From a virus: a stretch of 52,653 nt of DNA. Shown one piece after another: positions 20,640 through 33,333 of the stretch. How positions within the stretch are numbered: position 1 is the stretch's first letter; every line of letters begins with the position of its first letter. Under the pieces are notes generated by a model that saw only the letters and a program-made list of their open reading frames with translations, made no database searches and was not told where the DNA came from. Position numbers and translations under genes: made by a program. The stretch lies in the UHGV virus genome UHGV-0083175. One strand, written 5' to 3'.

Positions 20640-20840
20640 TCATTTCTCGTTATTTGTCATGCTGGCCGGACGCAGATGCGTTGCATCTGTTGCCAGCCTT
20701 CTCCTGCAGGCTTCAATAACCCACGCTGAAAAGTTACCGGACCCTTTATGCTCAAGGGCGATGTTGATCTGTTCAATCATGTGATTGGGGAAACGGATAT
20801 TGCGGGTTGTGGTTCTGCGGGTCCGGTTTTTCGATGACAT
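20640..20840 (-). CDS. YlcI/YnfO-family (DUF3950) small RHH-like protein
   Basis: MSSKNRTRRTTTRNIRFPNHMIEQINIALEHKGSGNFSAWVIEACRRRL matches recalled DLP12 YlcI. Confidence 0.8.
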   Translation of the reverse strand: MSSKNRTRRTTTRNIRFPNHMIEQINIALEHKGSGNFSAWVIEACRRRLATDATHLRPASMTNNEK

Positions 20841-21320: not shown

Positions 21321-21342
21321 AAAAAATTCCCGTTTCAGGTCA

Positions 21343-21462
21343 GTTAACATGTTAACTGGCTTCACGGGCATTTTTGCAGTTTTTATCTTTATTATTCAGT
21401 TTGTTGCGCGGAAAAAATGTTAACAGGCTTTTTCAGCAAATGTTAACCAGGCAGCAGTTAAC
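21343..21462. repeat. Five ATGTTAAC/GTTAACAT repeats (cosB-like TerS-binding sites, predicted)
   Basis: GTTAAC at 21343, 21351, 21419, 21442 and 21457, lying between cos and terS. Confidence 0.55.
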
Positions 21463-21538
21463 ATTTGCGGCATGAGACGCCGGGAAAAATGGGCTGAACC
21501 ATACCCGGCTGAGTGCATTCTGGACCCGGGAGGAGGCT

Positions 21539-22102
21539 GTGCTGACAACGCAAAAACGAAAATTTGCGCTGGCGCTCATGTCCGGGAAAAACAAAACAGC
21601 GTCAGCCATTGCCGCCGGTTATTCGGCGAAGACAGCCAGGGTTAAAGGCTCGCAGCTGGCAAAAGATCCGGAGGTGCTCGCGTTTATAGCCCGTAAGCAG
21701 TGCGAGACGGTAGAGGTGGATGAGGTTCCTGTTTACCGGCAGAAAAAATCAGAGCAGGAGGATAAACCCCGTCGCCGTGAGGCGGCTGCAATACCACAGC
21801 CGGACGAAACAAATCCGGAGATGCCTCTGCCCGTGGTGATATCTCCTGGTATTGAGTATATGGATGACGGTCTTCCCGATCCGGTGAAAGCGATGGGGCG
21901 TCTTCTGGTGGAGAACATTAATACCGACCCCAGGCTGGCGCTGGATGTGGCTTATAAGCTGGCACAGTTCACGCACCACAAAAAAGGGGATGCCGGTAAA
22001 AAATCGGCAAAAGGTGACGCGGCGAAAAAAGCGGCTAACCGTTTTGCGGTGCCACCACCCCCCCGACTGGTGGTGAATAATGATAATGAGGGCAGCGGAT
22101 GA
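21539..22102 (+). CDS. terS: Terminase small subunit (P27 family)
   Basis: N-terminal HTH QKRKFALALMSGKNKTASAIAAGYSAKTARVKGSQLAKDPEV. Its stop overlaps the terL start. Confidence 0.85.
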   Translation: MLTTQKRKFALALMSGKNKTASAIAAGYSAKTARVKGSQLAKDPEVLAFIARKQCETVEVDEVPVYRQKKSEQEDKPRRREAAAIPQPDETNPEMPLPVVISPGIEYMDDGLPDPVKAMGRLLVENINTDPRLALDVAYKLAQFTHHKKGDAGKKSAKGDAAKKAANRFAVPPPPRLVVNNDNEGSG

Positions 22103-22380
22103 TACCTGTGTGGAGCACGGCCTGCCCGGACTGGGCAGAGCGCCTGAAAAAGGGGCTGTCGATTATTCCGGCTCCGATTTACCCGGACCAGGCCGCACAT
22201 GCCCTGGCGATTTTTAAACAACTGCGGATTGTGGATGCACCGGGCAGCCCGACGTTCGGGGAGTCCTGTGCACCGTGGGTGTTTGATCTGGTGGCTGCCC
22301 TGTTTGGCTCCTACGATGCGCAGACCGGTGTACGCCATATAAAGGAAGTGTTCATTCTGATACCGAAAAATAATAGATAA
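22099..22380 (+). pseudogene. terL: Terminase large subunit, 5' fragment (interrupted by the island)
   Basis: The TerL N-terminus ends ..IKEVFILIPKNNR*. The reading frame breaks inside the P-loop at the island junction. Confidence 0.85.
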
Positions 22381-22381
22381 T

Positions 22382-22415
22382 AAAAAAACAAATAAAGTGT
22401 TTATTTGTTTTTTTC
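22382..22415. terminator. AT-rich hairpin terminator at the island left junction
   Basis: AACAAATAAA-gtg-TTTATTTGTT flanked by A- and T-runs. Confidence 0.45.
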
Positions 22416-22543
22416 TACGTTTTATCAAATAGTTATGGTTATCTTTGCTCTATGTTTTTATGTGTTGCTAACGGCAGATTTTAACGCTTTGTTGTTGACA
22501 TGGACTAACCGATGAACCATAAACTTTATCTGTAGGGGCATTT

Positions 22544-23779
22544 ATGCTAATCAAACCGTTAAGCCATGTTGAAGTAAAGAACGCAAAACCAAAGGATAAA
22601 GATTACTCGCTTCATGATGGATTTGGGTTGTTGTTATATGTTTCAAGAAAAGGCTGTAAAACATGGCGTTTCAGGTATCAGCACCCCGACACCAAAAAAA
22701 GACAAACGCTTACCATTGGTCGTTATCCAGATTATTCAATAGCTGAGGCAAGAGAGGAAAGGGATAAAGCAAGGAAATTACTTTCAAGAGGTGTGGATCC
22801 TAATGAGTCTAAGCGCAAGGCAAAATCTGAACGAATTATGCTGAGGTCACAGACCTTTGAAAAAATAACAAATAACTGGTTTGAATTGTATTTAAAGGGA
22901 AGCAGAAGGGAAAATACAGTAAAAACAGTTAGCAGAGTTATTAAAGTTTATATTATTCCTGATTTTGGGGGTTGGACGATTTATGATATACGTGCTGATA
23001 ATGTATTGTCAGTTATTAGAAAATATGACGAAACGCCTGCACAGCAACGAAAAATAGTACAGGTTATGCGTCTTGTTATGGATTATGCCGTGAATGCTGG
23101 AATTGTTCAGTTTAATCCGTTGTCTCGTATTCATAAAGCGCTTCCACCTATGGAAGAGAAAAGCTTTAAGGCGCTGCCCATAGAAAGATTACCCGCTTTT
23201 CTTAATTGGCTTGAGTCAGAAAGTTGTCATCCATCAATAACATATGGTCTTCTTTTTATGATGCTGACAATGACCAGACCTAACGAGGCATTAGGTGCCA
23301 AATGGTCAGAACTGGACGTTGACAGAAAACTATGGACCATTCCAGCAGAGAGGATGAAGGGGAAAAGAGAACACATTATTCCTTTATCTTTACAGGCTGT
23401 TGAAGTGATAATGCGAATGAGAAAAATAAAACAAAGTGAGTATGTTTTTTTTGGTGCTCATTCAGTTGCAAAGGCAATAACGAGAGATGCTATTGTCAGT
23501 AGGGTTAATAAAAGCGAGTTTGCAAAGGAAATGACAGTACACGGATTCAGGTCAATGTGGAGCACATTACTCAATGAAGAGGGATTTAACCCCGATGTTA
23601 TAGAGGCTGCACTTGCACATAAGAGCGGAAATACTGTAAGGGATATTTATAACAGGACGTCATATATTGAACAGCGGGTAATAATGATGCAATGGATAGG
23701 TGATTTTGTCGATTCTGCAAGACGTGGGGTTATTGTTAGGACGCATGGTAAACGCGGTTTAAAATTGGTAAATGAATAA
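22544..23779 (+). CDS. int: Tyrosine integrase (P4-type, N-terminal DUF4102 arm-binding domain)
   Basis: ..KDKDYSLHDGFGLLLYVSRKGCKTWRFRY... N-terminus. The catalytic region has ..HGFRS.. and ..LAH.....VR..Y. Confidence 0.9.
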   Translation: MLIKPLSHVEVKNAKPKDKDYSLHDGFGLLLYVSRKGCKTWRFRYQHPDTKKRQTLTIGRYPDYSIAEAREERDKARKLLSRGVDPNESKRKAKSERIMLRSQTFEKITNNWFELYLKGSRRENTVKTVSRVIKVYIIPDFGGWTIYDIRADNVLSVIRKYDETPAQQRKIVQVMRLVMDYAVNAGIVQFNPLSRIHKALPPMEEKSFKALPIERLPAFLNWLESESCHPSITYGLLFMMLTMTRPNEALGAKWSELDVDRKLWTIPAERMKGKREHIIPLSLQAVEVIMRMRKIKQSEYVFFGAHSVAKAITRDAIVSRVNKSEFAKEMTVHGFRSMWSTLLNEEGFNPDVIEAALAHKSGNTVRDIYNRTSYIEQRVIMMQWIGDFVDSARRGVIVRTHGKRGLKLVNE

Positions 23780-23791
23780 GGTGTACAATAT

Positions 23792-23998
23792 ATGAATGAT
23801 ATAAATAATAGTCAGATTTTGTTGCGTGATGATGTGATGAAAAAATTGCGATACAACAACGCGGCTGCTTTTCATATGTTTTTTAACAGAACGCCGGACT
23901 TTCCAAAGCCCTTCAAGATAGGCCGTCGCAATGCCTGGTATGAAGAGGATGTGCAAAATTGGCTTGATGAACAGCGAAGAAAAGCCCTTGAGGAGTGA
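23792..23998 (+). CDS. alpA: AlpA-family regulator/excisionase
   Basis: 68 aa, located just downstream of int. The pattern ..FPKPFKIGRRNAWYEEDVQNWL is AlpA-like. Confidence 0.75.
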   Translation: MNDINNSQILLRDDVMKKLRYNNAAAFHMFFNRTPDFPKPFKIGRRNAWYEEDVQNWLDEQRRKALEE

Positions 23999-24056
23999 AC
24001 GTAAAAGAACAGGCGTCCTTAAAGGTCGCCTGTTATGTAGTAGTGGAATATTACAA

Positions 24057-24419
24057 TCATGTTTTTTTTGATGCTATGTAAGCAAGAATGCACGGTTCCT
24101 TTGCCAGTTGTGACCCTTTCGATCTGGCTGTTTTCGCACTGTATCCAGCAAGAATAGCGCACTGTGTCTGATTCAGCCCTTTCATCATGTAATCAGCAAA
24201 TTTCTTTTTTTGCTTCGTCAGCTTGTTTGTTTGGTCGTTTTTATCATCGTTTGCGGTAAAAACATTAGATGTGGTCTTAAGCTGATGTTTACAGGCTTCA
24301 ATTACCCACGATGAGAAGTTGGAGTGCGCTTTATCTCTTTCTATGCGTTTTTCAATATCAGCTAATAAGTCAGGCGGGAAGCGGATCCCCTTAAGTATCG
24401 CTTTGCGTGTTTTGTCCAT
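24057..24419 (-). CDS. Fusion of a YlcI-like RHH domain and a TerS-type N-terminal HTH
   Basis: N-terminus ..GIRFPPDLLADIEKRIERDKAHSNFSSWVIEACKHQL (compare 20640-20840). C-terminus KQKKKFADYMMKGLNQTQCAILAGYSAKTARSKGSQLAKEP (compare the terS N-terminus). Confidence 0.7.
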   Translation of the reverse strand: MDKTRKAILKGIRFPPDLLADIEKRIERDKAHSNFSSWVIEACKHQLKTTSNVFTANDDKNDQTNKLTKQKKKFADYMMKGLNQTQCAILAGYSAKTARSKGSQLAKEPCILAYIASKKT

Positions 24420-24439
24420 TCATGGCCCCAAAATAAGTA

Positions 24440-24535
24440 GTGTTAACTTGTTACTATTTAACAGTTTTTGAGGGTGTGTTAAACAAAAAACTGGTTTGTG
24501 TTTAACGAAAATCGCTTCGTGTTAAACACGTTGCC
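24440..24535. promoter_or_regulatory. GTTAAC / TGTTAAACA repeat cluster (operator-like)
   Basis: GTTAAC at 24442, followed by three TGTTAAAC(A)/GTTTAACA copies upstream of the RHH-HTH gene. Confidence 0.45.
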
Positions 24536-24593
24536 TAGTTAGTGGGGACAGATGACGAGTTGATCAAACCTGCCGGATAACAGGCAAAGAAAA

Positions 24594-24620
24594 GGCCACC
24601 TGTCACGGTGGCCCTTCGAC
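24594..24620 (-). terminator. Intrinsic terminator of the leftward regulatory operon
   Basis: Read on the minus strand: GGCCACCG-tgaca-GGTGGCC followed by TTTTCTTT. Confidence 0.5.
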
Positions 24621-24692
24621 ACAAATTTCGCGTTATCCCCAACGCATGAGCATCGCCGACAATGCCACATTTACGGCTGGTGGACAAGGCTA

Positions 24693-24920
24693 TCAGCCAG
24701 GCGGTCGGTTTTTAGTGGCTTTTAACCGCCGTGGGTATTTCTCGACAAAATCTTCAAGGGCAAATTTTTCTGGTGGCATTAAGCGCGGCGCTGGTGGTGG
24801 TATTTTTGTTCTGGTTAGTTCTTCCTCAACTCTGGCGCAGGCTTCTGACTGCCTTTGCCGGATGATTTCATCATCTTGCGTTTGCGTGTCTTGTATTGGT
24901 GATAGTGTGTTGTTGGTCAT
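24693..24920 (-). CDS. Hypothetical protein
   Basis: 75-aa ORF downstream of the RHH gene on the minus strand. Confidence 0.4.
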   Translation of the reverse strand: MTNNTLSPIQDTQTQDDEIIRQRQSEACARVEEELTRTKIPPPAPRLMPPEKFALEDFVEKYPRRLKATKNRPPG

Positions 24921-24977
24921 GATACTGCCCTGTAAAGCAATGCGCCGTAGTACCTCACACCACGGCGCTGATAGTGA

Positions 24978-25157
24978 TTATTCTGATTCTTTGGCCTTGC
25001 GGCGCTGGCGGCGTTTGATCTCGCCTTTTGCTGCCGTAACTAGAAATCCGGCGGTACTTTCGCCAGGTTCTTTAAGTTGCTCAATATCGGTCATTACCTC
25101 ATGCGGGATTCTGACCGTTGTCATTTGTGATTTTGCGTTCTTTGCACCTGTTGCCAT
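24978..25157 (-). CDS. Small RHH (CopG/Arc-like) regulator
   Basis: The ATG at 25157 follows GGAGA. MATGAKNAKSQMTTVRIPHEVMTDIEQLK.. has the RHH beta-strand pattern. The track ORF is over-extended. Confidence 0.6.
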   Translation of the reverse strand: MATGAKNAKSQMTTVRIPHEVMTDIEQLKEPGESTAGFLVTAAKGEIKRRQRRKAKESE

Positions 25158-25177
25158 TTCTGGTTCTCCTGATAATC

Positions 25178-25270
25178 GGTGTATTTCAGTATACGCAAAA
25201 AAAAAGATAAAAAAAGTCTTGCGGTGTATTTCACCTGAATGTAGATTTAAAAATGAAGGTGAAATACACC
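25178..25270. promoter_or_regulatory. Divergent promoter/operator region of the island
   Basis: Perfect 13-bp inverted repeat GGTGTATTTCACC (25223-25235) / GGTGAAATACACC (25258-25270), plus a half-site at 25178-25188. A TTGCGG-N17-TAGATT promoter overlaps it. Confidence 0.5.
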
Positions 25271-25343
25271 TAAAACAACAACGCCCCGCAGTGATGGGAA
25301 CACATACGGGGCGTCTAACCAACAACGTAAACGAGGAGCCGTT

Positions 25344-25541
25344 ATGGTTGCCGTAAATCATATACCACACCTTGTACACACACAAACGGCCTTTGTGTGG
25401 CGTTTTCTGGCACTGAGTGCCGGAGAATCTCAAATCATCCACGTAACCGCCTGGACGGAACGCGAAGCGCGTAACCGTTGCCCGTCCGGTTGTGTTGCTG
25501 TATTTGCCGCCCGTATTCGTCAGGAGGTGCGCCATGATTAA
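25344..25541 (+). CDS. Icd-like (cell division inhibitor family) small protein
   Basis: ..FVWRFLALSAGES..IHVTAWTEREARNRCP.GCVAVFAARIR resembles recalled Icd-like proteins of P4/PICI elements. Confidence 0.5.
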   Translation: MVAVNHIPHLVHTQTAFVWRFLALSAGESQIIHVTAWTEREARNRCPSGCVAVFAARIRQEVRHD

Positions 25542-25746
25542 TCTGTCACTTACTGACCTTAACCGCATTCAGTTTCGTGAGAAATTCACAGGGCAGCTAC
25601 TGGTCAATGTGGATAAAGGTCGCGTGGTGTGTAATTACCACTTACCAGATGAAGCAATTGTCGCCACAAGGGAATCATTACAGGAAATCACAAAACGTGC
25701 CGGAATGATTAACACGAATATTCAGGGGATGCTTTATGCACAATAA
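25534..25746 (+). CDS. Hypothetical protein
   Basis: ATG after GGAGGTG, overlapping the upstream stop; 70 aa. Confidence 0.45.
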   Translation: MINLSLTDLNRIQFREKFTGQLLVNVDKGRVVCNYHLPDEAIVATRESLQEITKRAGMINTNIQGMLYAQ

Positions 25747-25975
25747 AACCACACCGGACGCAGCCGCCGAAGCCATCAAAACGCTGATGCACGCGCTGAT
25801 TGATATTTCTGTTATCGCGGACAGGGCACATAAGCACGCCACCAGCGAAACAGAATATGCCGGTGCTTTCGTTCCTCACTCACTGGCTGTCATGCAATTT
25901 AGTGCTGATACGGCGCTGAATGAGGCCAAAGCTATCCTGATTGCTGATTGTGAAAATGGGGGGGGTTATGCGTGA
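25736..25975 (+). CDS. Hypothetical protein
   Basis: 79-aa ORF in a coupled gene string. Confidence 0.45.
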   Translation: MHNKTTPDAAAEAIKTLMHALIDISVIADRAHKHATSETEYAGAFVPHSLAVMQFSADTALNEAKAILIADCENGGGYA

Positions 25976-26201
25976 TGATCGTTTTAATTCCCTGAAACAG
26001 GAATTTTCCGGCGTTCCTGATGATGCGGCTGATGCGCTTTCGTCAATGCCAGAACTTATTAGAGCGGCTTTTTTCTTACTTTCCACGAGAGAATATAAAT
26101 CAACGGGGCTTGATGTACTGAATATCGCCGCCGATTATGCGGAATATGTGGCAGAGGCGCGTTATAGAAGAAAATTTCCTGAGGATGTAAGCCATGCGTG
26201 A
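25968..26201 (+). CDS. Hypothetical protein
   Basis: The ATG at 25968 overlaps the upstream stop; 77 aa. Confidence 0.45.
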   Translation: MRDDRFNSLKQEFSGVPDDAADALSSMPELIRAAFFLLSTREYKSTGLDVLNIAADYAEYVAEARYRRKFPEDVSHA

Positions 26202-26427
26202 TATTTACCACCAAACAATAGACCGCGCATTTCTTGCACTTTCTCACAGTGAAAACATGATGGAAATATTGCGCATATGGCTTGAAACACTTGGCGACAA
26301 TGAACGCGACAAACAAAAATCAAGAATTGCCACGGCATTAATAACGCTTCTTGAGCCTGTAATAATGGAACTGCAAGAAATAGATCTATTGCACGACAGA
26401 TATAAAGAACAGCACATCGGAGAATAA
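26194..26427 (+). CDS. Hypothetical protein
   Basis: 77-aa ORF in a coupled gene string. Confidence 0.45.
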   Translation: MRDIYHQTIDRAFLALSHSENMMEILRIWLETLGDNERDKQKSRIATALITLLEPVIMELQEIDLLHDRYKEQHIGE

Positions 26428-26432
26428 AAATA

Positions 26433-26732
26433 ATGAAACTTAAATATTCTGGCTTAACTGCCAGTGGCAACACTCACCCTAAATTTACGCGCGGTGATAT
26501 TTACCGCGACCAGTACGGCGGCACGGTAATGATTAAGGGCGTGGCGGGACGGTGCGTAACTTACCGCCGTGAAGGTTACGAATATGATTGCGTGATGCCT
26601 GTTTATCAGTTCCGGCGTGATTTTTCTCTGGTACAGACCGCGCCGCATAACGTGCCCACCAGCAACGCCAGGGCACGGGCAAACATCCAGAAGCTGAAAA
26701 CCATGATTAACGGATTCAGGGGTAAAAAATGA
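26433..26732 (+). CDS. Hypothetical protein
   Basis: 99-aa ORF whose stop overlaps the start of the rep gene. Confidence 0.5.
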   Translation: MKLKYSGLTASGNTHPKFTRGDIYRDQYGGTVMIKGVAGRCVTYRREGYEYDCVMPVYQFRRDFSLVQTAPHNVPTSNARARANIQKLKTMINGFRGKK

Positions 26733-28126
26733 AACTGGCACCGAATGTAAAACTGTTACCGAAAGATAAACACACCGAAGCGGTTATTTTTGCGGGTGAT
26801 AATGCTCACTCATTTGCAGAGCACTACATCATTGCACAGGCCAAAAAAGCAGGCGATCCAGTCCCTCCCGTTTACCTGGGGCGTTATCAGTTAAGCGAAC
26901 TGGATAACTTGCAGATTGTTGATAAAGGTCGGTTCAGGGCGAAAGTGATACGTGCCGGAAATATTGACGAAGTGCAGTTGTTAACCATCGCCACGAAACT
27001 GGCAATCGCAGGAGTCCAGGAAGCGCGCCTGTTTTCTGAAAATTTCGAATTGCTGGAGGAATGGAGCGACCAGCTTACACGGCTTAGGGAGACATGGGAA
27101 CGCGGGGAAAGCCTGAGCCACCAGCGAAAAACAAAGCTACCGATGAGCGTTGGATCTGCCGGATACGACACGCAATTAGATTACGTGGTAAAGGGGATTA
27201 TTCCGGCATCGTCGCTATGCAGCATATACGGGGCGAGCGGTTCATATAAATCGTTCCTTGCGGGTTCGTGGGCGTGTCACGTTTCCACGGGCCGCCAGTG
27301 GGGAGGCCGCAGGGTTGCACATGGTGCAGTTCTCTATGTGGTTGGTGAAGGCGGTATTGGTGTTCCGCGTCGTGTAAAAGCCTGGGAGGTTGTGCACGGT
27401 GAGCAGGTGAAAAATCTGTATCTGGTAAACCGTCCCATCTTTCCGGCTGTCCCGCTTGATGTTGATGAAATGGTTATCGCTGCCCGCCAGGTGGAACGGG
27501 AAACCGGTAAACCTGTACGCATGATTATTCTGGATACGCTGGCGCGTTGCTTTGGCGGCAATGATGAAAATGACTCCCGCGACATGGGGGCATTTATCCG
27601 TGGTTGTGACGAGCTTAAACGGCGCACAGGGGCCACTGTGCTGGTGGTTCACCATTCCGGCAAGGATGAAACAAAGGGGGCGCGTGGTTCCAGTGCATTT
27701 CGTGCTTCGCTGGATGCTGAATACCGGATACGCAGGGAGGACGCAGGAAGCGAAGCGCTGGTTATCTCATGCACCAAAATGAAGGACGCGGAGGAACTCA
27801 AAGAGGCTGCCTATGATTTGCGGGTGGTGGAGCTTTTTACCGACGCTGACGGGGAGTTAATCACGTCGCTGGTGGTGGTGGATAAGTCGCGCCCTCCCGT
27901 TGAACTGGAGCGCATCGAAGAGGCAGGCAACAAGACGGAAAACCATACCGCGCTATGGGGGTGTATCCGTTCACGCACACAGAACGGCGACAAGTGCACG
28001 ATCCCGCTGTTACGTGATGACATGAAAAAACTGGGGTACGAAATAAAGCACTTCCGGCGCTGGCTGGGCAAGCTGGAAAAAGACGGCGTTATCTATGTTG
28101 ACGGCGATGATGTAGGGCCACTGTAA
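26729..28126 (+). CDS. Replication protein, RepA/AAA_25-type (RecA-like) helicase, Pri-Rep-like
   Basis: Walker A-like YGASGSYKSF, Walker B-like RMIILDTLARCFGG.DEND, and ..VLVVHHSGKD..KGARGSSA. Iterons follow immediately. Confidence 0.8.
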   Translation: MKLAPNVKLLPKDKHTEAVIFAGDNAHSFAEHYIIAQAKKAGDPVPPVYLGRYQLSELDNLQIVDKGRFRAKVIRAGNIDEVQLLTIATKLAIAGVQEARLFSENFELLEEWSDQLTRLRETWERGESLSHQRKTKLPMSVGSAGYDTQLDYVVKGIIPASSLCSIYGASGSYKSFLAGSWACHVSTGRQWGGRRVAHGAVLYVVGEGGIGVPRRVKAWEVVHGEQVKNLYLVNRPIFPAVPLDVDEMVIAARQVERETGKPVRMIILDTLARCFGGNDENDSRDMGAFIRGCDELKRRTGATVLVVHHSGKDETKGARGSSAFRASLDAEYRIRREDAGSEALVISCTKMKDAEELKEAAYDLRVVELFTDADGELITSLVVVDKSRPPVELERIEEAGNKTENHTALWGCIRSRTQNGDKCTIPLLRDDMKKLGYEIKHFRRWLGKLEKDGVIYVDGDDVGPL

Positions 28127-28328
28127 AAAGTGGGGGGCAAAAGTGGTGGGCATGGGGAATTTAACAAAATTTAAACACGACCCCCCACTTTTTGACCTGT
28201 ATACATCCCAAAAAGTGGGGAGCAAAAAAATACTTATGAAACAGCATGATAAAAATTACAAATCCCACGCCTTTAACGAGATGGGGAATTGTGAAAAGTG
28301 GGGAGTAAAAGTGGGTATAGGTGGGGAG
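28127..28328. repeat. Island replication origin iterons (AAAGTGGGG repeats)
   Basis: At least 6 copies of AAAGTGG(G/T)GG(A)G in both orientations (28127, 28140, 28181 inverted, 28211, 28294, 28308), flanking an AT-rich spacer at 28224-28262. Confidence 0.6.
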
Positions 28329-28580
28329 ATGACACAAAAACGCAGAGACAGAACACAGCCAAAATATAAAGCGTTAGACATGACAGAGCACGCTTTAAAG
28401 GTGGCAATCAGAACGATAGACCGCCACGCGGGGGAAGGATACGCGAAGGAACATCCCGACCTGATAAGCGCATTCATGACCACAGCGGCGGCAAACTTTG
28501 CCACGCTGACAGAACGGGAGATTGCCGAAGCGGAACAGGTAACAACCATCAACGTTAAAACCGGAGAGTTGGAATCATGA
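28329..28580 (+). CDS. Hypothetical protein
   Basis: The likely start is the ATG at 28329, after the iterons. The track ORF start (28143) would read through the origin. Confidence 0.4.
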   Translation: MTQKRRDRTQPKYKALDMTEHALKVAIRTIDRHAGEGYAKEHPDLISAFMTTAAANFATLTEREIAEAEQVTTINVKTGELES

Positions 28581-28882
28581 GCGAACCAAAATTTGGTGAA
28601 AAACTTTACAAGCACAACGGACGGATCACGATTCTGCAAATAAGCGCAGCTACACCAGGCTGGTGGGTTGAAACAGACGAAGGATCCTCACCCGTGGCAT
28701 CATGGGCGCTTTGTGCGCTTAGTTACCCTGACCGCGATGTGTATCAGGATATTCTGCCTGTGATATCCACTGACAAAGGCATGAAACCCGTAGACATCAA
28801 AAACATGGGTTTTCAGTGCGTAATGCTCACTGAAAAAATGATGGAAGAGATGAAAAAGAACAACGCCGGATCGCTTCACTGA
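28577..28882 (+). CDS. Hypothetical protein
   Basis: 101-aa ORF, coupled to the upstream gene. Confidence 0.5.
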   Translation: MSEPKFGEKLYKHNGRITILQISAATPGWWVETDEGSSPVASWALCALSYPDRDVYQDILPVISTDKGMKPVDIKNMGFQCVMLTEKMMEEMKKNNAGSLH

Positions 28883-28891
28883 GGTGGCAAT

Positions 28892-29290
28892 ATGACAGCA
28901 CAAATTGCAGCTTACGGGCGGCTGGTGGACGACCCGCAGGTAAAACAGACCAGCAAGGGCACACCGATGACGCTGGCGCGTATGGCGGTATCTTTGCCAT
29001 GCAGCCAGGCACAGGACGGACAGGCGACGTTATGGTTATCGGTCATCGCATTTGGCAAACAGGCCGACTTCCTGGCTAAACATCAAAAAGGAGATGTTGC
29101 CAGCGTATCCGGCACGATGCAGGTAAGCCAGTGGACAGGCCAGAACGGCGAAACGCGGCAGGGCTGGCAGGTTATCGCAGACAGCGTAATCAGTGCCCGA
29201 GGCGGGAACAGACGCAAAACCACAGGCACACAGGGTAATCAGCCACCAGCGGGAGGCGATGACCCTTACGGTGATGGTATTCCGTTCTGA
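28892..29290 (+). CDS. ssb: Single-stranded DNA-binding protein
   Basis: OB-fold pattern (..GRLVDDPQVKQTSKGTPMTLARMAV...W..V.AFGKQA..L...KGD...V.G......W), a Gly/Pro-rich tail and an acidic tip DGIPF. Confidence 0.85.
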   Translation: MTAQIAAYGRLVDDPQVKQTSKGTPMTLARMAVSLPCSQAQDGQATLWLSVIAFGKQADFLAKHQKGDVASVSGTMQVSQWTGQNGETRQGWQVIADSVISARGGNRRKTTGTQGNQPPAGGDDPYGDGIPF

Positions 29291-29300
29291 GGGGGTGAGG

Positions 29301-29573
29301 ATGGTACATGACCGCATAGCGGAGGAACTCGAGGCGAAAGGATTTTACCGGAGGGCGGCGGCGCGATGGGGTGAAGTCATGCAGCTGGTGGAGACAGACA
29401 AGGAACGGTATCAGGTTACGATGCGACGGCTGGAATGTTCCAGGAAGGCACAGAAGCCACCGGAGCCGCCGGATAACTTCGGAGACCTGAGAAAGGCAGT
29501 CGATCGCACTTATGCTGAAATGGGTATAGATGGTGCAGGCGATGAAGTATGGCGTAATTACCCAGACAGCTAA
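29301..29573 (+). CDS. PerC/Pch-family transcriptional activator-like protein
   Basis: MVHDRIAEELEAKGFYRRAAARWGEVM.. resembles the recalled PerC family core (LE..G.YRRAA.RW.EV). Confidence 0.6.
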   Translation: MVHDRIAEELEAKGFYRRAAARWGEVMQLVETDKERYQVTMRRLECSRKAQKPPEPPDNFGDLRKAVDRTYAEMGIDGAGDEVWRNYPDS

Positions 29574-29578
29574 GCACA

Positions 29579-29602
29579 TAGCCGGAGCAATCCGGCTTTT
29601 TT
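29579..29602 (+). terminator. Intrinsic terminator
   Basis: AGCCGGA-gcaa-TCCGGCT followed by T7. Confidence 0.75.
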
Positions 29603-29691
29603 TCGATCTCACATATCTTTAAAAATGGTTGATTGATTATAATCTATCGAAAATAATGATTATGAGATGATAAGCATCAGGAGGAAACAAA

Positions 29692-29886
29692 GTGGAACAG
29701 ATAAAGCAAAGCGCTACCGTGATGATTGATCACGAGATCCTAAACGAGCTTAAAAAACTTCAATTCGATGTTATTCGCCGGATGAATGAAGCTGGTATAT
29801 ACGGCAGAGCCGCCACGCCAACAGTAGGCCATCTTGCTCGCGTGCTGTTACGCGAACGCCTGGGCATTGCAACAGGTGAGGAATAA
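29692..29886 (+). CDS. Hypothetical small protein (RHH-like N-terminus)
   Basis: GTG start 8 nt after AGGAGG; 64 aa. Confidence 0.45.
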   Translation: MEQIKQSATVMIDHEILNELKKLQFDVIRRMNEAGIYGRAATPTVGHLARVLLRERLGIATGEE

Positions 29887-29888
29887 CA

Positions 29889-30050
29889 ATGGTTATCACA
29901 GAACGCGAGGCAAGCATCATTAAAGCCATTGGCGAGGAAACAAGAGACACGATAGCGCCATTAATGGAAAAGATCGCAGAGCTTGAGACACGAATAAACA
30001 AGCTGAGTGATGAAGTTGAAGGCCTGATCTCGTTACTCGGTGAGCAATGA
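29889..30050 (+). CDS. 53-aa protein resembling the N-terminus of the helper repeat protein (below the track cutoff)
   Basis: MVITEREASIIKAIGEE.. compared with the helper protein at 36907, MNERELSIIRALGEE... It has a coiled-coil tail. Confidence 0.45.
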   Translation: MVITEREASIIKAIGEETRDTIAPLMEKIAELETRINKLSDEVEGLISLLGEQ

Positions 30051-30115
30051 CAGGGGGGGGGGAGTGTTCCGGCCGGAAAGTCGATCGCCCTGGACACCGC
30101 CCCCCGTCTCATTCG
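30051..30115. other. Island cos-like site
   Basis: G10 (30053-30062) ... CGATCGCCCTGGACACC-G-CCCCCC-GTCTCA, homologous to helper 21255-21312. Confidence 0.5.
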
Positions 30116-30138
30116 TAGAAAATTTTGCTTTTCAAAAA

Positions 30139-30412
30139 AGTTACACGAAAAGTTACACCCCCTCAAAACGAGGTTTTTGCATGGCATTAACGACCAAAAA
30201 AAAGCGGTTTGCTGATGCGTTATCAAGGGGCGCAAATCCCACGGAAGCCGCTATACATGCGGGATACAGCGAAAAGACCGCAAGGGTTAAAGGCTGGCAG
30301 CTATCCAACGATCCTGAGGTGAAAAAGTATCTTAAGGTTGTCACTCCTGATGTAACTTTTCAGGTTACAAAACCGAAAAAAGTTACAAAGAAAGTTACCG
30401 AAAAAGTTACAC
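30139..30412. repeat. (A/G)GTTAC(A/C) repeat array spanning the terS-like 5' region
   Basis: Copies at 30139, 30151, ~30351 (inverted), 30363, 30381, 30393 and 30405. The last three are spaced 12 bp apart. Confidence 0.55.
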
Positions 30413-30669
30413 CGGAACGGGCATCAATCAGCACCATAGAACGGATGGACAACGGCTTGCCCGACCCTATCAAAGCTATGGGCAGGATACTGGCTGACAA
30501 CATAGACACAGATCCAAAACTGGCTTTAGATGCCGCGTTTAAGCTGGCCCAGTTCACCCACCGCAAGATCGGCAGCATTGGGAAAAAAGAGGTTAAAAAA
30601 CTCAATGCCGCGAATGTCTCCTCAAATCGGTTCCCCATCCCTAAGCCACCAACAGGCTTAAAACACTGA
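30181..30669 (+). CDS. Island-encoded terminase small subunit paralogue
   Basis: The HTH KKKRFADALSRGANPTEAAIHAGYSEKTARVKGWQL and C-terminus MDNGLPDPIKAMGRILADNIDTDPKLALDAAFKLAQFTH closely parallel the helper TerS. Confidence 0.8.
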   Translation: MALTTKKKRFADALSRGANPTEAAIHAGYSEKTARVKGWQLSNDPEVKKYLKVVTPDVTFQVTKPKKVTKKVTEKVTPERASISTIERMDNGLPDPIKAMGRILADNIDTDPKLALDAAFKLAQFTHRKIGSIGKKEVKKLNAANVSSNRFPIPKPPTGLKH

Positions 30670-30680
30670 GGTAGCGAACT

Positions 30681-30842
30681 ATGAACGAATACATCACAGA
30701 CCCTATTGATGTACTCACGGAAATCATGAACGACAAGCAGCAGCCAACCGAAATACGGTTACAGGCTGCCGCTGTTCTGATGCCATATTTTCACGAAACT
30801 CTAACCCCATGTTACCAGGAGGAAGAAGATGATGATTTCTAA
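30681..30842 (+). CDS. 53-aa hypothetical protein (below the track cutoff)
   Basis: MNEYITDPIDVLTEIMNDKQQPTEIRLQAAAVLMPYFHE.. with an acidic tail. It overlaps the next start. Confidence 0.45.
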   Translation: MNEYITDPIDVLTEIMNDKQQPTEIRLQAAAVLMPYFHETLTPCYQEEEDDDF

Positions 30843-31755
30843 AAACATGAAAGGCGTGTCGGCAGTTCGCGCCGCCAGCGTGCTTACATCGTGTAAATTC
30901 AGCCATGCAGACGCAATTGAAATGACGAAAAAAAATGATCCGGCAGTATCGAAATTTCTTGAAAAATCCATTGTTGCCGGAATGACTACGGATAATATGC
31001 CGTCGCTGGTGGCAGAGCCGATAGTAAGAGAGCTTGGCGAGTATATTTTTTCGCAGTCTGTACCAGGCAAGCTAATCAGCAGCGCGCTGAATCTTCCGTT
31101 TGGCGCAAAATTGCAGTCAATATCAGGCAAGGGTAGTAAATGGCTTAAAGAAGCCGAAGAAATCCCTGTCAAAGAGGGAGAAGTAAACGAAAGTGCGCTA
31201 AAACTGTGCAAACTTGGCGCTATTGTGATGCTGAATAACGAGCTAATCAAATTTAGCACCCCTGGTACCAATTCAGCGATCAGAGACTTGATCACATCGG
31301 AATCGGTGAAAGAAATAGATAAAAAATTTCTTTCCAGTGACCAGGAGTTGGCGGGCGTATCCCCTGAGGGCGTGCTTAATGGTGCTGATGAGGCCGAAAA
31401 CTTCATAGAGCTTTTCAAAAAGCACATAGCGAACGGTAACACGCTTGCCACGTCGTCGCTAATCTTGCCCGTAGAAAACGCCTTACAGCTTACTGATGCT
31501 GAGTTCTGGCAGATAGAGCTTTTGAGAATACCGGTAATTGTGAGCGAACAGGCGGATCGCATGATGCTGATAGACGCTCAAAAGCTGATTATTAACGTTG
31601 AAGCCACGGTTATAACCCCAACTGATGAGGCGGTAATAAAAACCGAATCAGGGACGGTTAGCCTTTTCCAGAATGACGCTACAGCGTTCAGGGCAATCAC
31701 CTATTGCGGATGGCAAAAACTCGATAAGGCCGTCACCGTTCTGGCGCAATCTTGA
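30829..31755 (+). CDS. HK97-fold major capsid protein paralogue (no protease/scaffold part)
   Basis: Several blocks align by eye to the C-terminal half of 33397-35334, for example ..LCKLGAIVMLNNELIKFSTPGTNSAIRDLI.. against ..AKVSAIAVLTEELIRFSSPAADALVRNAL... Confidence 0.7.
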   Translation: MMISKNMKGVSAVRAASVLTSCKFSHADAIEMTKKNDPAVSKFLEKSIVAGMTTDNMPSLVAEPIVRELGEYIFSQSVPGKLISSALNLPFGAKLQSISGKGSKWLKEAEEIPVKEGEVNESALKLCKLGAIVMLNNELIKFSTPGTNSAIRDLITSESVKEIDKKFLSSDQELAGVSPEGVLNGADEAENFIELFKKHIANGNTLATSSLILPVENALQLTDAEFWQIELLRIPVIVSEQADRMMLIDAQKLIINVEATVITPTDEAVIKTESGTVSLFQNDATAFRAITYCGWQKLDKAVTVLAQS

Positions 31756-31932
31756 TGTAGTGCGCCGCATTACTGGTTATGTGAATGCGGCGCATAGGGC
31801 CTACGAAAAACAAAATTAGTTTACGTTATCTTATGTAACCATATTTAACGGAGAAGACTAAAACGCGGACTATTTAGTGTCAGTGCGTGAGCCTAACAGC
31901 ATAATAAACAAGATATTAAGATAGCTTTACGC

Positions 31933-33333
31933 ATACCCAAAAAAAACAGCAAGTCCACGCTGGCTGCCGGGATCATGATGACGGCGCTGTTACTGAACTG
32001 GCGGCAGGCGGCGGGCTACACCATTCTGGCCCCGACCGTGGAGGTGGCGGCTAATGCCTTCAATCCTGCCAGGGATATGGTACGACGGGACGATGATCTG
32101 GATGACCTCTGTCAGGTGCAGACACATATCCGGACCATCACCCATCGGGTGACGGACACCACCCTGAAGGTGGTGGCAGCCGATCCGAATACGGTGTCCG
32201 GTATCAAGTCCGTGGGGACACTGATTGATGAACTGTGGCTGTTTGGCAAGCAGTACAAAGCGGAGGACATGTTACGTGAAGCCATAGGTGGCCTTGCCTC
32301 CCGCCCGGAAGGGTTTGTGGTGTATACGACCACCCAGTCGAATGAACCGCCCGCCGGGGTGTTCAGACAGAAACTGCAGTACGCCCGGGATGTGCGCGAC
32401 GGCAAAATTCATGATCCGCACTTTCTGCCGGTGATATTTGAGCATCCGCCGGAGATGGTGGAGCGCGGTGAGCACCTGCTGATGGAAAACCTCGCCATGG
32501 TCAATCCGAATCTCGGTTATTCGGTGGATGAGGCCTTTCTGTACCGGGAGTATCGTAAAGCCCGGGAAGCCGGTGAAGATACATTCCGGGGGTTCATGTC
32601 AAAACACGCCAATGTGGAAATTGGTCTTGCCCTGCGTTCTGACCGCTGGGCGGGTGCGGATTTCTGGGAGCAGCAGGGCAGGCGCGTCAGCCTGGACGAT
32701 ATTCTGCAGCGCGCTGATGTGGTGACGGTGGGGATTGACGGCGGGGGCCTGGATGATCTGCTGGGAATGTACGTGATTGGCCGTGACAGGGAAACCCGCG
32801 AATGGCTGGGCTGGGGCCATGCCTGGGCGCATGAAACCGCGGTGGTCAGACGGAAGAGTGAGGCATCCCGTTTTCAGGATTTTGTGGCCTGTGGAGACAT
32901 GACGATTGTCCGTCGGGTCGGGGATGACACGGCGGAAGTGGCGGAGTATGTGCGTCGTATTCATGAGGCTGAGTTACTGGATCATATCGGTATTGACCCG
33001 TCAGGTGTGGGGCAGATTCTGGATTCACTGGCGGAAGCCGGGATCCCCGACGGAATTGTTGTGGGGATAAGCCAGGGCTGGAAGCTGGGCGGGGCCATCA
33101 AAACCACCGAGCGCAAACTGGCTGAGGGAGTGCTGGTGCATGGTGGTCAGCCACTGATGGCCTGGTGCGTTGGCAATGCCCGGGTGGAGCCTAAAGGTAA
33201 CGCCATCCTTATTACCAAACAGGCCAGCGGACGGGGGAAAATTGACCCGCTGATGGCGCTGTTCAATGCGGTATCCCTGATATCCCTGAATCCGGAGCCC
33301 AAAAAGAAAGAATATGCGGTTTTTTTCATATAA
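31933..33333 (+). pseudogene. terL: Terminase large subunit, 3' fragment
   Basis: The frame is open from 31933 (IPKKNSKSTLAAGIMMTALLLNW...). The track ORF begins at the internal ATG 31975. It continues 22099-22380. Confidence 0.85.

What the first reader, a model, noticed from the sequence alone, without database searches (positions are those of the whole stretch)
24057..24540. RHH + TerS-HTH fusion protein next to GTTAA(A)C repeats that echo the helper cosB repeats: a possible packaging decoy/repressor
The 120-aa minus-strand protein joins a YlcI/YnfO-like RHH domain to a TerS-type HTH. The RHH domain (..IRFPPDLLADIEKRIE....SNFSSWVIEACKHQL) resembles the helper gene at 20640-20840. The HTH (KKKFADYMMKGLNQTQCAILAGYSAKTARSKGSQLAKEP) is cut off before the oligomerisation and TerL-binding part.

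Its upstream region (24440-24535) holds GTTAAC and three TGTTAAACA-type repeats. The helper has five ATGTTAAC/GTTAACAT repeats between cos and terS (21343-21462).

Hypothesis: the truncated TerS DNA-binding head autoregulates the island and can also occupy helper cosB. That would block helper packaging, while the island's own TerS uses a different repeat (AGTTACA).
Basis: inference. Interest (0 to 1): 0.7.

Follow-up and report, generated by a model that had tools for sequence, protein, structure and literature searches.

The report
Satellite repressor carrying a terminase DNA-binding head
A phage satellite embedded in its helper prophage encodes a rare, conserved 120-aa protein that joins a ribbon-helix-helix regulator to the DNA-binding head of a small terminase. 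The repeats in front of the gene are the usual operators of that regulator family, not copies of the helper's packaging signal.

Summary
ORF 24057-24419(-) encodes a YlcI/DUF3950 RHH-type domain (aa 6-48), a disordered linker, and a TerS head (aa 67-119, Terminase_2 positions 1-53 of 141). The head matches the SF6 G1P DNA-binding domain (TM 0.83). All three repeat clusters are real and non-random.

Both domains are under purifying selection (dN/dS 0.11-0.28), while the linker is near neutral. The fusion is rare: two clusters among 1.84 billion representatives. It always sits beside alpA and int of helper-embedded PICIs.

The central inference fails. Single-domain RHH paralogues with no HTH, in related satellites, carry the same operators (GTGTTTAAACAC, GGTGCACAAACACC). 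The control regions of two fusion orthologues align base for base with those of HTH-less paralogues. The GTT(T/A)AACAC array is therefore an RHH-family operator that overlaps the gene's promoter, which suggests autorepression.

The target of the terminase head is unknown. Helper cosB remains possible: the heads are 66% identical, and 15 of 16 residues match across the turn and recognition helix. That part is untested.

Verdict: a new variant of a known kind, of moderate interest.

The parts
24057..24419 (-). Fusion gene, 120 aa: RHH domain, linker and TerS-type HTH
   Evidence: ORF list. Pfam, NCBIfam and PHROG assignments. Orthologues at 44-99% identity keep both domains. dN/dS is 0.12-0.24 overall.
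24276..24404 (-). N-terminal YlcI/DUF3950 (phrog_949) domain, aa 6-48, predicted ribbon-helix-helix
   Evidence: NF041551 37.6 bits. PF13132 28.3 bits. phrog_949 E 8.8e-10. AF2 gives an extended segment plus two helices. Foldseek top hits are RHH proteins but not significant.
24222..24275 (-). Disordered linker, aa 49-66
   Evidence: pLDDT below 50 for aa 47-63. dN/dS 0.45-0.99. Length and sequence vary among orthologues.
24063..24221 (-). TerS-type HTH DNA-binding head, aa 67-119, with no oligomerisation or TerL-binding part
   Evidence: Terminase_2 profile positions 1-53 of 141. SF6 G1P DNA-binding domain by sequence and by fold, TMt 0.83. 66% identical to the helper TerS head.
24440..24530 (-). 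Array of five operator units, GTGTT(T/A)AACAC type, 21-22 bp apart, in the gene's orientation
   Evidence: The same array type occurs upstream of all orthologues. The same operator type occurs upstream of HTH-less RHH paralogues.
24453..24482 (-). Predicted sigma-70 promoter inside the array: -35 TTAACA, 18-nt spacer, -10 AATAGT
   Evidence: Consensus scan. This is a prediction only.
24583..24616 (-). Terminator-like hairpin (GGCCACC..GGTGGCC followed by TTTTCTTT) that insulates the fusion gene from upstream leftward transcription
   Evidence: Inverted repeat I5, coordinates. An analogous hairpin occurs in L002 and L003.
24008..24034 (.). Hairpin between the convergent alpA-like gene and the fusion gene. 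On the minus strand it is followed by CTTTT.
   Evidence: Sequence.
21343..21464 (.). Helper GTTAACAT repeats (five copies, mixed orientation) between cosN and terS. This is the candidate target of the HTH.
21539..22102 (+). Helper TerS. Its N-terminal head is the closest relative of the fusion's HTH within this window.
30139..30412 (+). Satellite cosB-like AGTTACA repeats, next to the satellite cos (30046-30115) and partly inside its own terS (30181-30669)
24978..25157 (-). Stand-alone RHH paralogue (59 aa, phrog_949) of the same satellite. Its own GGTGAAATACACC operators lie at 25178-25270.

Best explanation
The gene encodes a satellite regulator of the YlcI/phrog_949 ribbon-helix-helix family. 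In place of that family's usual short basic tail, it carries the DNA-binding head of a Terminase_2-type small terminase on a flexible linker.

The RHH domain dimerises and binds the GTGTT(T/A)AACAC operators. These units are phased two helical turns apart and cover the gene's own -35 and -10 elements, so the protein represses its own synthesis. This part is inferred from homology with HTH-less paralogues and their operators.

Each dimer then displays two terminase heads. These cannot oligomerise into a TerS ring and cannot recruit TerL. Their most likely targets are TerS recognition repeats at cos. The helper's GTTAACAT cluster is the first candidate, because the turn and recognition helix match helper TerS at 15 of 16 positions. 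Binding there would occlude helper TerS and favour the satellite, whose own TerS reads AGTTACA. This second step is inference only, and I give it about 0.3. The stated confidence of 0.55 applies to the first part: an RHH-operated autoregulator that carries a terminase head as a second DNA-binding module.
For: - Architecture.
- A real gene with both domains constrained: orthologues at 44-68% identity keep both domains. dN/dS is 0.11-0.28 in the domains and 0.45-0.99 in the linker.
- The fusion HTH and helper terS are 60% identical at the DNA level, with third positions at 36%. The similarity is therefore old and maintained, not a recent conversion.
- Position is conserved: convergent to alpA and int, preceded by a terminator and an operator array.
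- The array is of RHH type. HTH-less 60-72 aa paralogues have GTGTTTAAACAC, GGTGCACAAACACC or TTTAAACAC units upstream.
- The control regions of L007 and L008 align with those of L102/L098 and L096/L060, including the first codons.
- The predicted promoter lies inside the array.
- HTH versus helper TerS: 35/53 identical. HTH versus the satellite's own TerS: 26/49 identical.
- The satellite has its own cos and its own TerS with a conserved C-terminus, so helper and satellite compete for the same TerL.
- Precedents exist for satellite proteins that use a TerS-like DNA-binding domain (Rpp, PMC6739421) or bind helper DNA (PLE CapR, cited in PMC10111431).
Against: - No binding data exist for either domain.
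- The RHH fold rests on family membership and a model at pLDDT about 60. Fold matches are not significant.
- The window-group array matches the HTH-less operators only at the motif level, not by regional alignment.
- Fusion control regions carry extra units, and L008 has 12-bp tandem units like a TerS array. A contribution of the HTH to operator binding is therefore not excluded.
- The fusion HTHs form their own clade and are only modestly closer to helper-type than to satellite-type heads.
- The recognition helix is broadly conserved across this TerS family while cos repeats differ. Near-identity of the helix does not prove shared specificity.
- The helper repeats are themselves TGT..ACA palindromes and could be YlcI sites rather than TerS sites.
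Confidence: 0.55

Rival explanations
1. The TerS-type HTH reads the upstream GTTAA(A)C repeats for autoregulation. Because these echo the helper's GTTAACAT repeats, the same head occupies helper cosB as a packaging decoy.
For: The upstream units and the helper repeats share a GTTAACA core. The turn and recognition helix match at 15 of 16 positions. L008 has 12-bp tandem units like the satellite's own cosB. GT(T/A)AACA motifs recur around cos in a related Salmonella phage.
Against: The same operators stand upstream of paralogues that have no HTH. The control regions of two fusion orthologues are homologous to those of HTH-less paralogues. P0004 and P0005 have identical HTH recognition regions but different left halves in their repeat units; the differences track changes in the RHH N-arm.
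Confidence: 0.15
2. The HTH targets the satellite's own cos region (AGTTACA repeats). It could hold packaging in check during lysogeny or help the satellite TerS assemble there. The helper is not the target.
For: The satellite repeats contain TTACAC, close to the (T/A)(A/T)ACAC core. The HTH is 53% identical to the satellite TerS head.
Against: The recognition helix differs more from the satellite TerS (GWQLSN versus GSQLAK) than from the helper TerS. There is no evident advantage in blocking one's own packaging signal.
Confidence: 0.1
3. Helper-DNA sensor. The RHH represses satellite promoters. When the helper replicates, the many new cos copies bind the HTH heads and pull the repressor off its operators, which couples satellite activation to helper replication.
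For: The protein has two independent DNA-binding modules on a flexible linker. The satellite lies in cis inside the helper. HE-PICIs are known to depend on helper-driven cues (PMC10111431).
Against: Occupying the HTH should not by itself release the RHH from DNA. In the window the array is found only at the protein's own promoter, so no other regulated target is visible.
Confidence: 0.08
4. Non-functional recombination relic. This follows the PGAP annotation, which calls it two pseudogene fragments.
For: PGAP annotates 'terminase small subunit, incomplete' and 'hypothetical protein, incomplete' at the identical locus in CP027459.
Against: The ORF is intact in 39 or more contigs. Orthologues at 44-68% identity keep both domains, with dN/dS 0.11-0.28 and saturated synonymous sites.
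Confidence: 0.03

Closest known systems
Rpp of E. coli PICI EcCICFT073 (Fillol-Salom et al. 2019, PMC6739421)
   Same: A small satellite-encoded protein whose DNA-binding domain resembles the head of a phage small terminase, with no TerL-binding part. It is used to bias cos packaging towards the satellite.
   Different: Rpp has a MerR-like winged HTH resembling lambda Nu1, not the SF6 G1P-type head. There is no detectable sequence similarity. Rpp acts by binding phage TerS, and its islands lack terS. Here the island has its own TerS, and the second domain is an RHH with its own operators.
Stand-alone YlcI/DUF3950 (phrog_949) regulators of Gram-negative PICIs and lambdoid phages
   Same: They share a homologous N-terminal domain, the same operator type (GTGT..ACAC palindromes), the same position at the head of the leftward unit, and in two lineages a homologous control region.
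   Different: They are 59-72 aa single-domain proteins ending in a basic tail. None carries an HTH. Their function has not been studied: no paper was found.
Small terminase of SF6/SPP1 (G1P) and the helper TerS (Terminase_2)
   Same: The helix-turn-helix head has the same fold and sequence family. It is 66% identical to the helper's head.
   Different: It lacks the oligomerisation core and the C-terminal TerL-binding region. It is not next to terL or cos, so it cannot work as a terminase subunit.
PLE CapR (Bro-network repressor of the ICP1 capsid promoter), as cited in PMC10111431
   Same: A satellite DNA-binding protein encoded in the dynamic zone after int/alpA that acts on helper DNA.
   Different: CapR has a different fold family, and no Bro-N domain is found here. 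CapR's helper target is shown experimentally; here the helper target is hypothetical.
SaPI Ppi and PLE Gpi (packaging interference proteins)
   Same: They would have the same biological outcome if the cos-occlusion step is true: helper packaging is reduced in favour of the satellite (for Gpi).
   Different: Both act on terminase proteins: TerS for Ppi (my own knowledge) and TerL for Gpi. Neither acts on the DNA signal, and neither is homologous to this protein.

Membership tests
Small terminase subunit (Pfam Terminase_2, SF6 G1P-like) | N-terminal HTH DNA-binding domain | tested here: met
   PF03592 45.5 bits against a cutoff of 26.1, aa 67-119. PDB 2cmp E 1.6e-4. Foldseek TMt 0.83.
Small terminase subunit (Pfam Terminase_2, SF6 G1P-like) | Central oligomerisation core and C-terminal TerL-binding region | tested here: not met
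   The match stops at profile position 53 of 141 and the protein ends at aa 120. The helper and satellite TerS proteins have a conserved C-terminal half that is absent here.
Small terminase subunit (Pfam Terminase_2, SF6 G1P-like) | Encoded next to terL and the packaging signal | tested here: not met
   The gene lies between alpA and the replication zone, on the opposite strand, 5.6 kb from the satellite cos.
YlcI/YnfO family (DUF3950, NF041551) | Match to the family model above the curated cutoff | tested here: met
   NF041551 37.6 bits against 30. PF13132 28.3 bits against 25.
YlcI/YnfO family (DUF3950, NF041551) | Single-domain protein of about 60-70 aa | tested here: not met
   The protein is 120 aa with a second domain. 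Only 2 clusters among 1.84 billion representatives have this architecture.
Ribbon-helix-helix autorepressors (Arc/Mnt/CopG type) | Beta-alpha-alpha fold that forms an intertwined dimer | tested here: inconclusive
   AF2 predicts an extended segment plus two helices at pLDDT 60-72. Top Foldseek hits are Arc, ParD2, MazE and pCXC100 ParB, but at E about 3. The PDB profile search found nothing significant. A dimer could not be modelled.
Ribbon-helix-helix autorepressors (Arc/Mnt/CopG type) | Repeated or palindromic operators overlapping the protein's own promoter | tested here: met
   Five phased units at 24440-24530 contain the predicted -35 and -10 elements. The array is conserved in orthologues and paralogues. 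Actual binding was not testable.
Rpp (redirecting phage packaging) | Homology to Rpp, and an island that lacks its own terS | tested here: not met
   No Rpp chain appears among PDB hits at E up to 10. The island encodes a full TerS.
Rpp (redirecting phage packaging) | Forms a heterocomplex with phage TerS | not testable with these tools
   This needs pull-down or two-hybrid assays.
Helper-embedded PICI (context of the gene; PMC10111431) | [quoted passage not shown] Zones in the order int/AlpA, dynamic, replication, late. | tested here: met
   terL is split at 22380/31975. The order is int, alpA, then the fusion and RHH genes, then AAA_25 helicase and SSB, then TerS and a capsid-like gene. L008 has the same terL site.
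Bro-N network proteins of the PICI dynamic zone | A Bro-N or associated domain | tested here: not met
   Pfam, PHROG and NCBIfam give only DUF3950 and Terminase_2.

The most novel reading that the evidence does not exclude
The dimeric RHH scaffold displays two helper-type terminase heads that sit on the helper's cos-proximal GTTAACAT repeats and block the helper's own small terminase. Packaging interference would then act on the DNA signal rather than on a terminase protein. That would be a mechanism class not yet described for satellites, and an example of a packaging-recognition head being reused in a regulator.
Probability: 0.25. Interest if true: 0.75.

Novelty: new variant of a known kind. 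Interest (0 to 1): 0.45.

Why it matters
Satellites are known to hijack packaging through proteins that bind TerS (Ppi, Rpp) or TerL (Gpi), or by carrying their own TerS.

This protein has a terminase DNA-recognition head detached from the motor-recruiting part and grafted onto an autoregulated repressor. If the head binds helper cos, it would be the first DNA-level packaging blocker. It would also give a simple handle on how Terminase_2-type TerS heads read cos repeats.

Three more modest results stand whatever the head's target turns out to be:
- The unstudied YlcI/DUF3950 family, which includes an ORF next to cos in lambda, gets a concrete operator consensus (GTGT-N-ACAC palindromes).
- The locus shows domain swapping in the dynamic zone of helper-embedded PICIs that goes beyond the Bro network.
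- It also corrects a PGAP pseudogene call.

Tried and rejected
1. I tried to test whether the upstream array co-varies with helper cosB in diverged satellite-helper pairs.
   - L008 sits at the same terL site of an 80%-diverged helper, but the contig ends 44 nt before terS.
   - A search with its TerL fragment gave only unrelated split terL genes.
   - The nearest phage, FSL SP-016, has almost no cos-terS spacer.
   - Result: no usable second pair.

2. I looked for more fusion orthologues with long flanks.
   - None turned up in GTDB representative genomes or in IMG/VR.
   - JGI metagenomes held only an identical copy.

3. A DNA search of the locus against phage genomes found no match. The module was therefore not recently copied from a phage cosB-terS region.

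4. Recent gene conversion from helper terS is rejected. Third-position identity is 36%.

5. Membership of a known defence system: there is no PADLOC hit.

6. The literature on DUF3950/YlcI/YnfO has nothing functional. No paper describes this fusion.

7. Stx2 phage 1717 first looked like another embedded satellite, but its terL region carries IS629 instead.

8. The pseudogene reading is rejected.

Full report
**What is there**

The minus-strand ORF 24057-24419 is intact and encodes 120 aa.
- Pfam finds DUF3950 at aa 19-47 and the first 53 of 141 positions of Terminase_2 at aa 67-119. Both are above their curated cutoffs.
- NCBIfam places aa 6-48 in YlcI_YnfO_N.
- PHROGs places the N-terminal half in phrog_949. 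This is the family of the satellite's own 59-aa protein at 24978-25157. The C-terminal half falls in the small-terminase families.
- The only solved structures found by sequence are the DNA-binding domain and full-length small terminase of SF6.
- An AF2 model gives a four-helix C-terminal domain at pLDDT about 95. It superposes on 2cmp with TM 0.83.
- The model has a disordered linker at aa 47-63, and an N-terminal extended segment plus two helices at modest confidence.
- Fold searches with the N-domain alone list Arc, ParD2, MazE and the pCXC100 ParB first, but none is significant. RHH is therefore the probable fold, not a demonstrated one.
- The protein stops exactly where a TerS would begin its oligomerisation core. 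The helper TerS (21539-22102) and the satellite TerS (30181-30669) share a conserved C-terminal half that is missing here.

**The repeats**

- Upstream of the gene there are five units of GTGTT(T/A)AACAC type, at -105, -84, -62, -40 and -26 from the start codon. All are in the gene's orientation and 21-22 bp apart, and the distal one is a perfect 13-bp palindrome.
- The helper has GTTAACAT five times between its cosN-like G10...C10 element and terS.
- The satellite has its own cos at 30046-30115, homologous to the helper's. It is followed by seven AGTTACA/GTTAC units, three of them 12 bp apart inside its terS gene.
- Total motif counts are near chance, but the clustering is not: 0 of 1000 simulations reach it.

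**Is it a real gene?**

PGAP annotates the identical locus in E. coli 90-3040 as two pseudogene fragments. The evidence goes against that reading.
- A search of 5.8 billion proteins found five clusters at 99, 68, 62, 44 and 44% identity. All of them keep both domains.
- A profile search of 1.84 billion representatives found only two clusters with the full architecture.
- None is present in GTDB representative genomes or in IMG/VR. Only an identical copy is present in JGI metagenomes.
- One of 5426 complete E. coli genomes has the locus.
- dN/dS is 0.11-0.28 in each domain and 0.45-0.99 in the linker.
- The HTH-coding part is 60% identical to helper terS at the DNA level, with third positions at 36%. 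The likeness to the helper head is therefore old and maintained, not a recent conversion.

**Context**

The island (int 22544-23779, alpA-like 23792-23998, and so on) is inserted in the helper's terL. The N-fragment is 22099-22380 and the rest is 31975-33333. The island is co-oriented with the helper late operon.
- This is the helper-embedded PICI configuration described by Tommasini, Mageeney and Williams (PMC10111431).
- The helper belongs to the long-tailed Stx-phage group: BP-4795, 2851 and YYZ-2008, with TerS 90-97% identical.
- In every locus the fusion gene lies convergent to alpA and int, in the 'dynamic zone' of that paper. It is preceded by a terminator-like hairpin and the operator array.
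- The diverged orthologue in L008 sits at the same terL codon of an 80%-diverged helper.

**The turn in the argument**

I examined the single-domain paralogues of the N-terminal domain in other satellites. These are 60-72 aa proteins with no HTH.
- They have the same operators upstream of their genes:
  - GTGTTTAAACAC three or four times in L114 and L118.
  - GGTGCACAAACACC and AGTGTATAAACACG in L102 and L098.
  - GTGTTTAAATAC, TTTAAACAC and GTGTTAAAACAC in L096 and L060.
- The control regions of the P0004 and P0005 fusion orthologues (L007, L008) align with those of L102/L098 and L096/L060 at about 74% column identity. The alignment runs operator by operator and on into the first codons.
- In those lineages the fusion is simply the satellite's canonical RHH regulator with its basic tail replaced by a terminase head.
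- P0004 and P0005 have identical HTH recognition regions. Their repeat units differ in the left half, in step with changes in the RHH N-arm (TT versus QY).
- The N-domain is also a little closer to satellite RHH regulators (46-56%) than to helper YlcI (40-43%).
- The window satellite's own stand-alone RHH has three GGTGAAATACACC operators of the same GTG...CAC design.

The array is therefore best read as an RHH-family operator. Its GTTAAC-like centre is not evidence that the HTH binds there. For the window, L002 and L003 this rests on motif identity only, because the regions do not align globally with the paralogues.

**Mechanism**

*Step 1 (inferred, fairly well supported).* The RHH domain dimerises and binds the phased operators.
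- These contain the predicted -35 TTAACA and -10 AATAGT, which gives autorepression.
- A hairpin upstream isolates the gene from leftward read-through.

*Step 2 (inference only).* The two terminase heads per dimer bind TerS-type repeats at cos.

For the helper as target:
- The heads are 35/53 identical, against 26/49 for the satellite's own TerS.
- GYSAKTAR(S/V)KGSQLAK differs from the helper at one of 16 positions.
- There is a clear selective logic: helper and satellite TerS compete for one TerL.

Against:
- The fusion HTHs form their own clade and are only modestly closer to phage-type heads.
- The recognition helix is conserved across the family while cos repeats differ.
- The helper repeats are TGT..ACA palindromes of the RHH-operator design. 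They might belong to helper YlcI rather than TerS.

I put cos occlusion of the helper at about 0.3. The rivals are binding to the satellite's own cos, a helper-DNA titration switch, and a contribution of the HTH to operator binding. The last is suggested by extra units in fusion control regions and by the 12-bp tandem units in L008.

**Comparison with known systems**

- The closest idea is Rpp, whose DNA-binding domain resembles the lambda TerS head (PMC6739421). It is a different fold family, acts by binding TerS, and occurs in islands without terS.
- PLE CapR shows that dynamic-zone satellite proteins can bind helper DNA.
- Ppi and Gpi act on terminase proteins (for Gpi).
- The protein is not a small terminase, because it lacks the core and the TerL-binding part.
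- It is a member of the YlcI/YnfO family only through its N-domain.
- No paper mentions this fusion or any function for DUF3950.

**Verdict**

- The architecture, the truncation, the likely autoregulation and the separate satellite TerS specificity all hold.
- The 'echo' that motivated the decoy model is explained by the RHH domain and no longer supports it.

This is a rare, conserved, two-headed DNA-binding regulator in a helper-embedded PICI. It is a new variant of a known kind, of moderate interest, with a testable and more novel reading still open.

Noticed in passing
window 22099-22380, 22381-31974, 31975-33333: The whole island is a helper-embedded PICI inserted in the helper's terL and co-oriented with the late operon. 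The att core is imperfect (ATACCGAAAAA / ATACCCAAAAA). This configuration is already described in PMC10111431. L008 shows the same terL site in an 80%-diverged helper.
   Followed up: partly
window 30046-30115 and 30139-30412: The satellite cos is homologous to helper cosN (G10...C-rich element). It is followed by AGTTACA repeats instead of GTTAACAT. Three units are 12 bp apart inside the satellite terS ORF. The satellite TerS is 47% identical to the helper TerS, with a conserved C-terminal half.
   Followed up: partly
window 30829-31755: A 308-aa protein with weak similarity to the C-terminal part of HK97-type major head proteins (phrog_617, phrog_10). It could redirect capsid size, as Ccm does in SaPIbov5.
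   Followed up: no
window 24978-25157 and 25178-25270: A stand-alone RHH paralogue (59 aa) with three GGTGAAATACACC operators in the divergent promoter region. Across satellites, the family's operators follow a GTG(T)-N-(A)CAC palindrome design whose centre varies with the protein.
   Followed up: partly
window 20640-20840; phage records: A YlcI/DUF3950 homologue is the last ORF before cos, on the opposite strand, in lambda-like phages (156-nt tblastn match 200-550 bp from the right end) and in Stx phages. This holds regardless of terminase type. No function has been published.
   Followed up: partly
window 21341-21466: The helper 'cosB' repeats are palindromic. CAGTTAACATGTTAACTG is a perfect 18-mer, and GCAAATGTTAAC/GTTAACATTTGC form 12-nt inverted arms. 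They share the TGT..ACA design of the RHH-family operators, so they might be sites for helper YlcI rather than, or as well as, TerS.
   Followed up: no
L003 5152-6262: In this metagenomic contig a capsid-like gene typical of the satellite's right end lies directly next to int. This suggests an excised circular form or a tandem satellite.
   Followed up: no
L001 12364-12720 (CP027459): PGAP annotates the intact 120-aa fusion ORF as two incomplete pseudogene fragments, probably because no full-length family model exists.
   Followed up: yes
L007 4550-4600; L008 120-190: Fusion control regions carry extra operator units compared with homologous HTH-less control regions: a 42-bp insertion in L007 and 12-bp tandem units in L008. 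This is unexplained and could reflect a contribution of the HTH.
   Followed up: partly
L110 1900-2240 (Salmonella phage FSL SP-016): cosN lies only about 25 bp before terS. The terS start codon sits inside ATGTTAAC, and GTAAACA occurs three times around cos. This suggests GT(T/A)AACA-type motifs are general near cos in this terminase family.
   Followed up: partly
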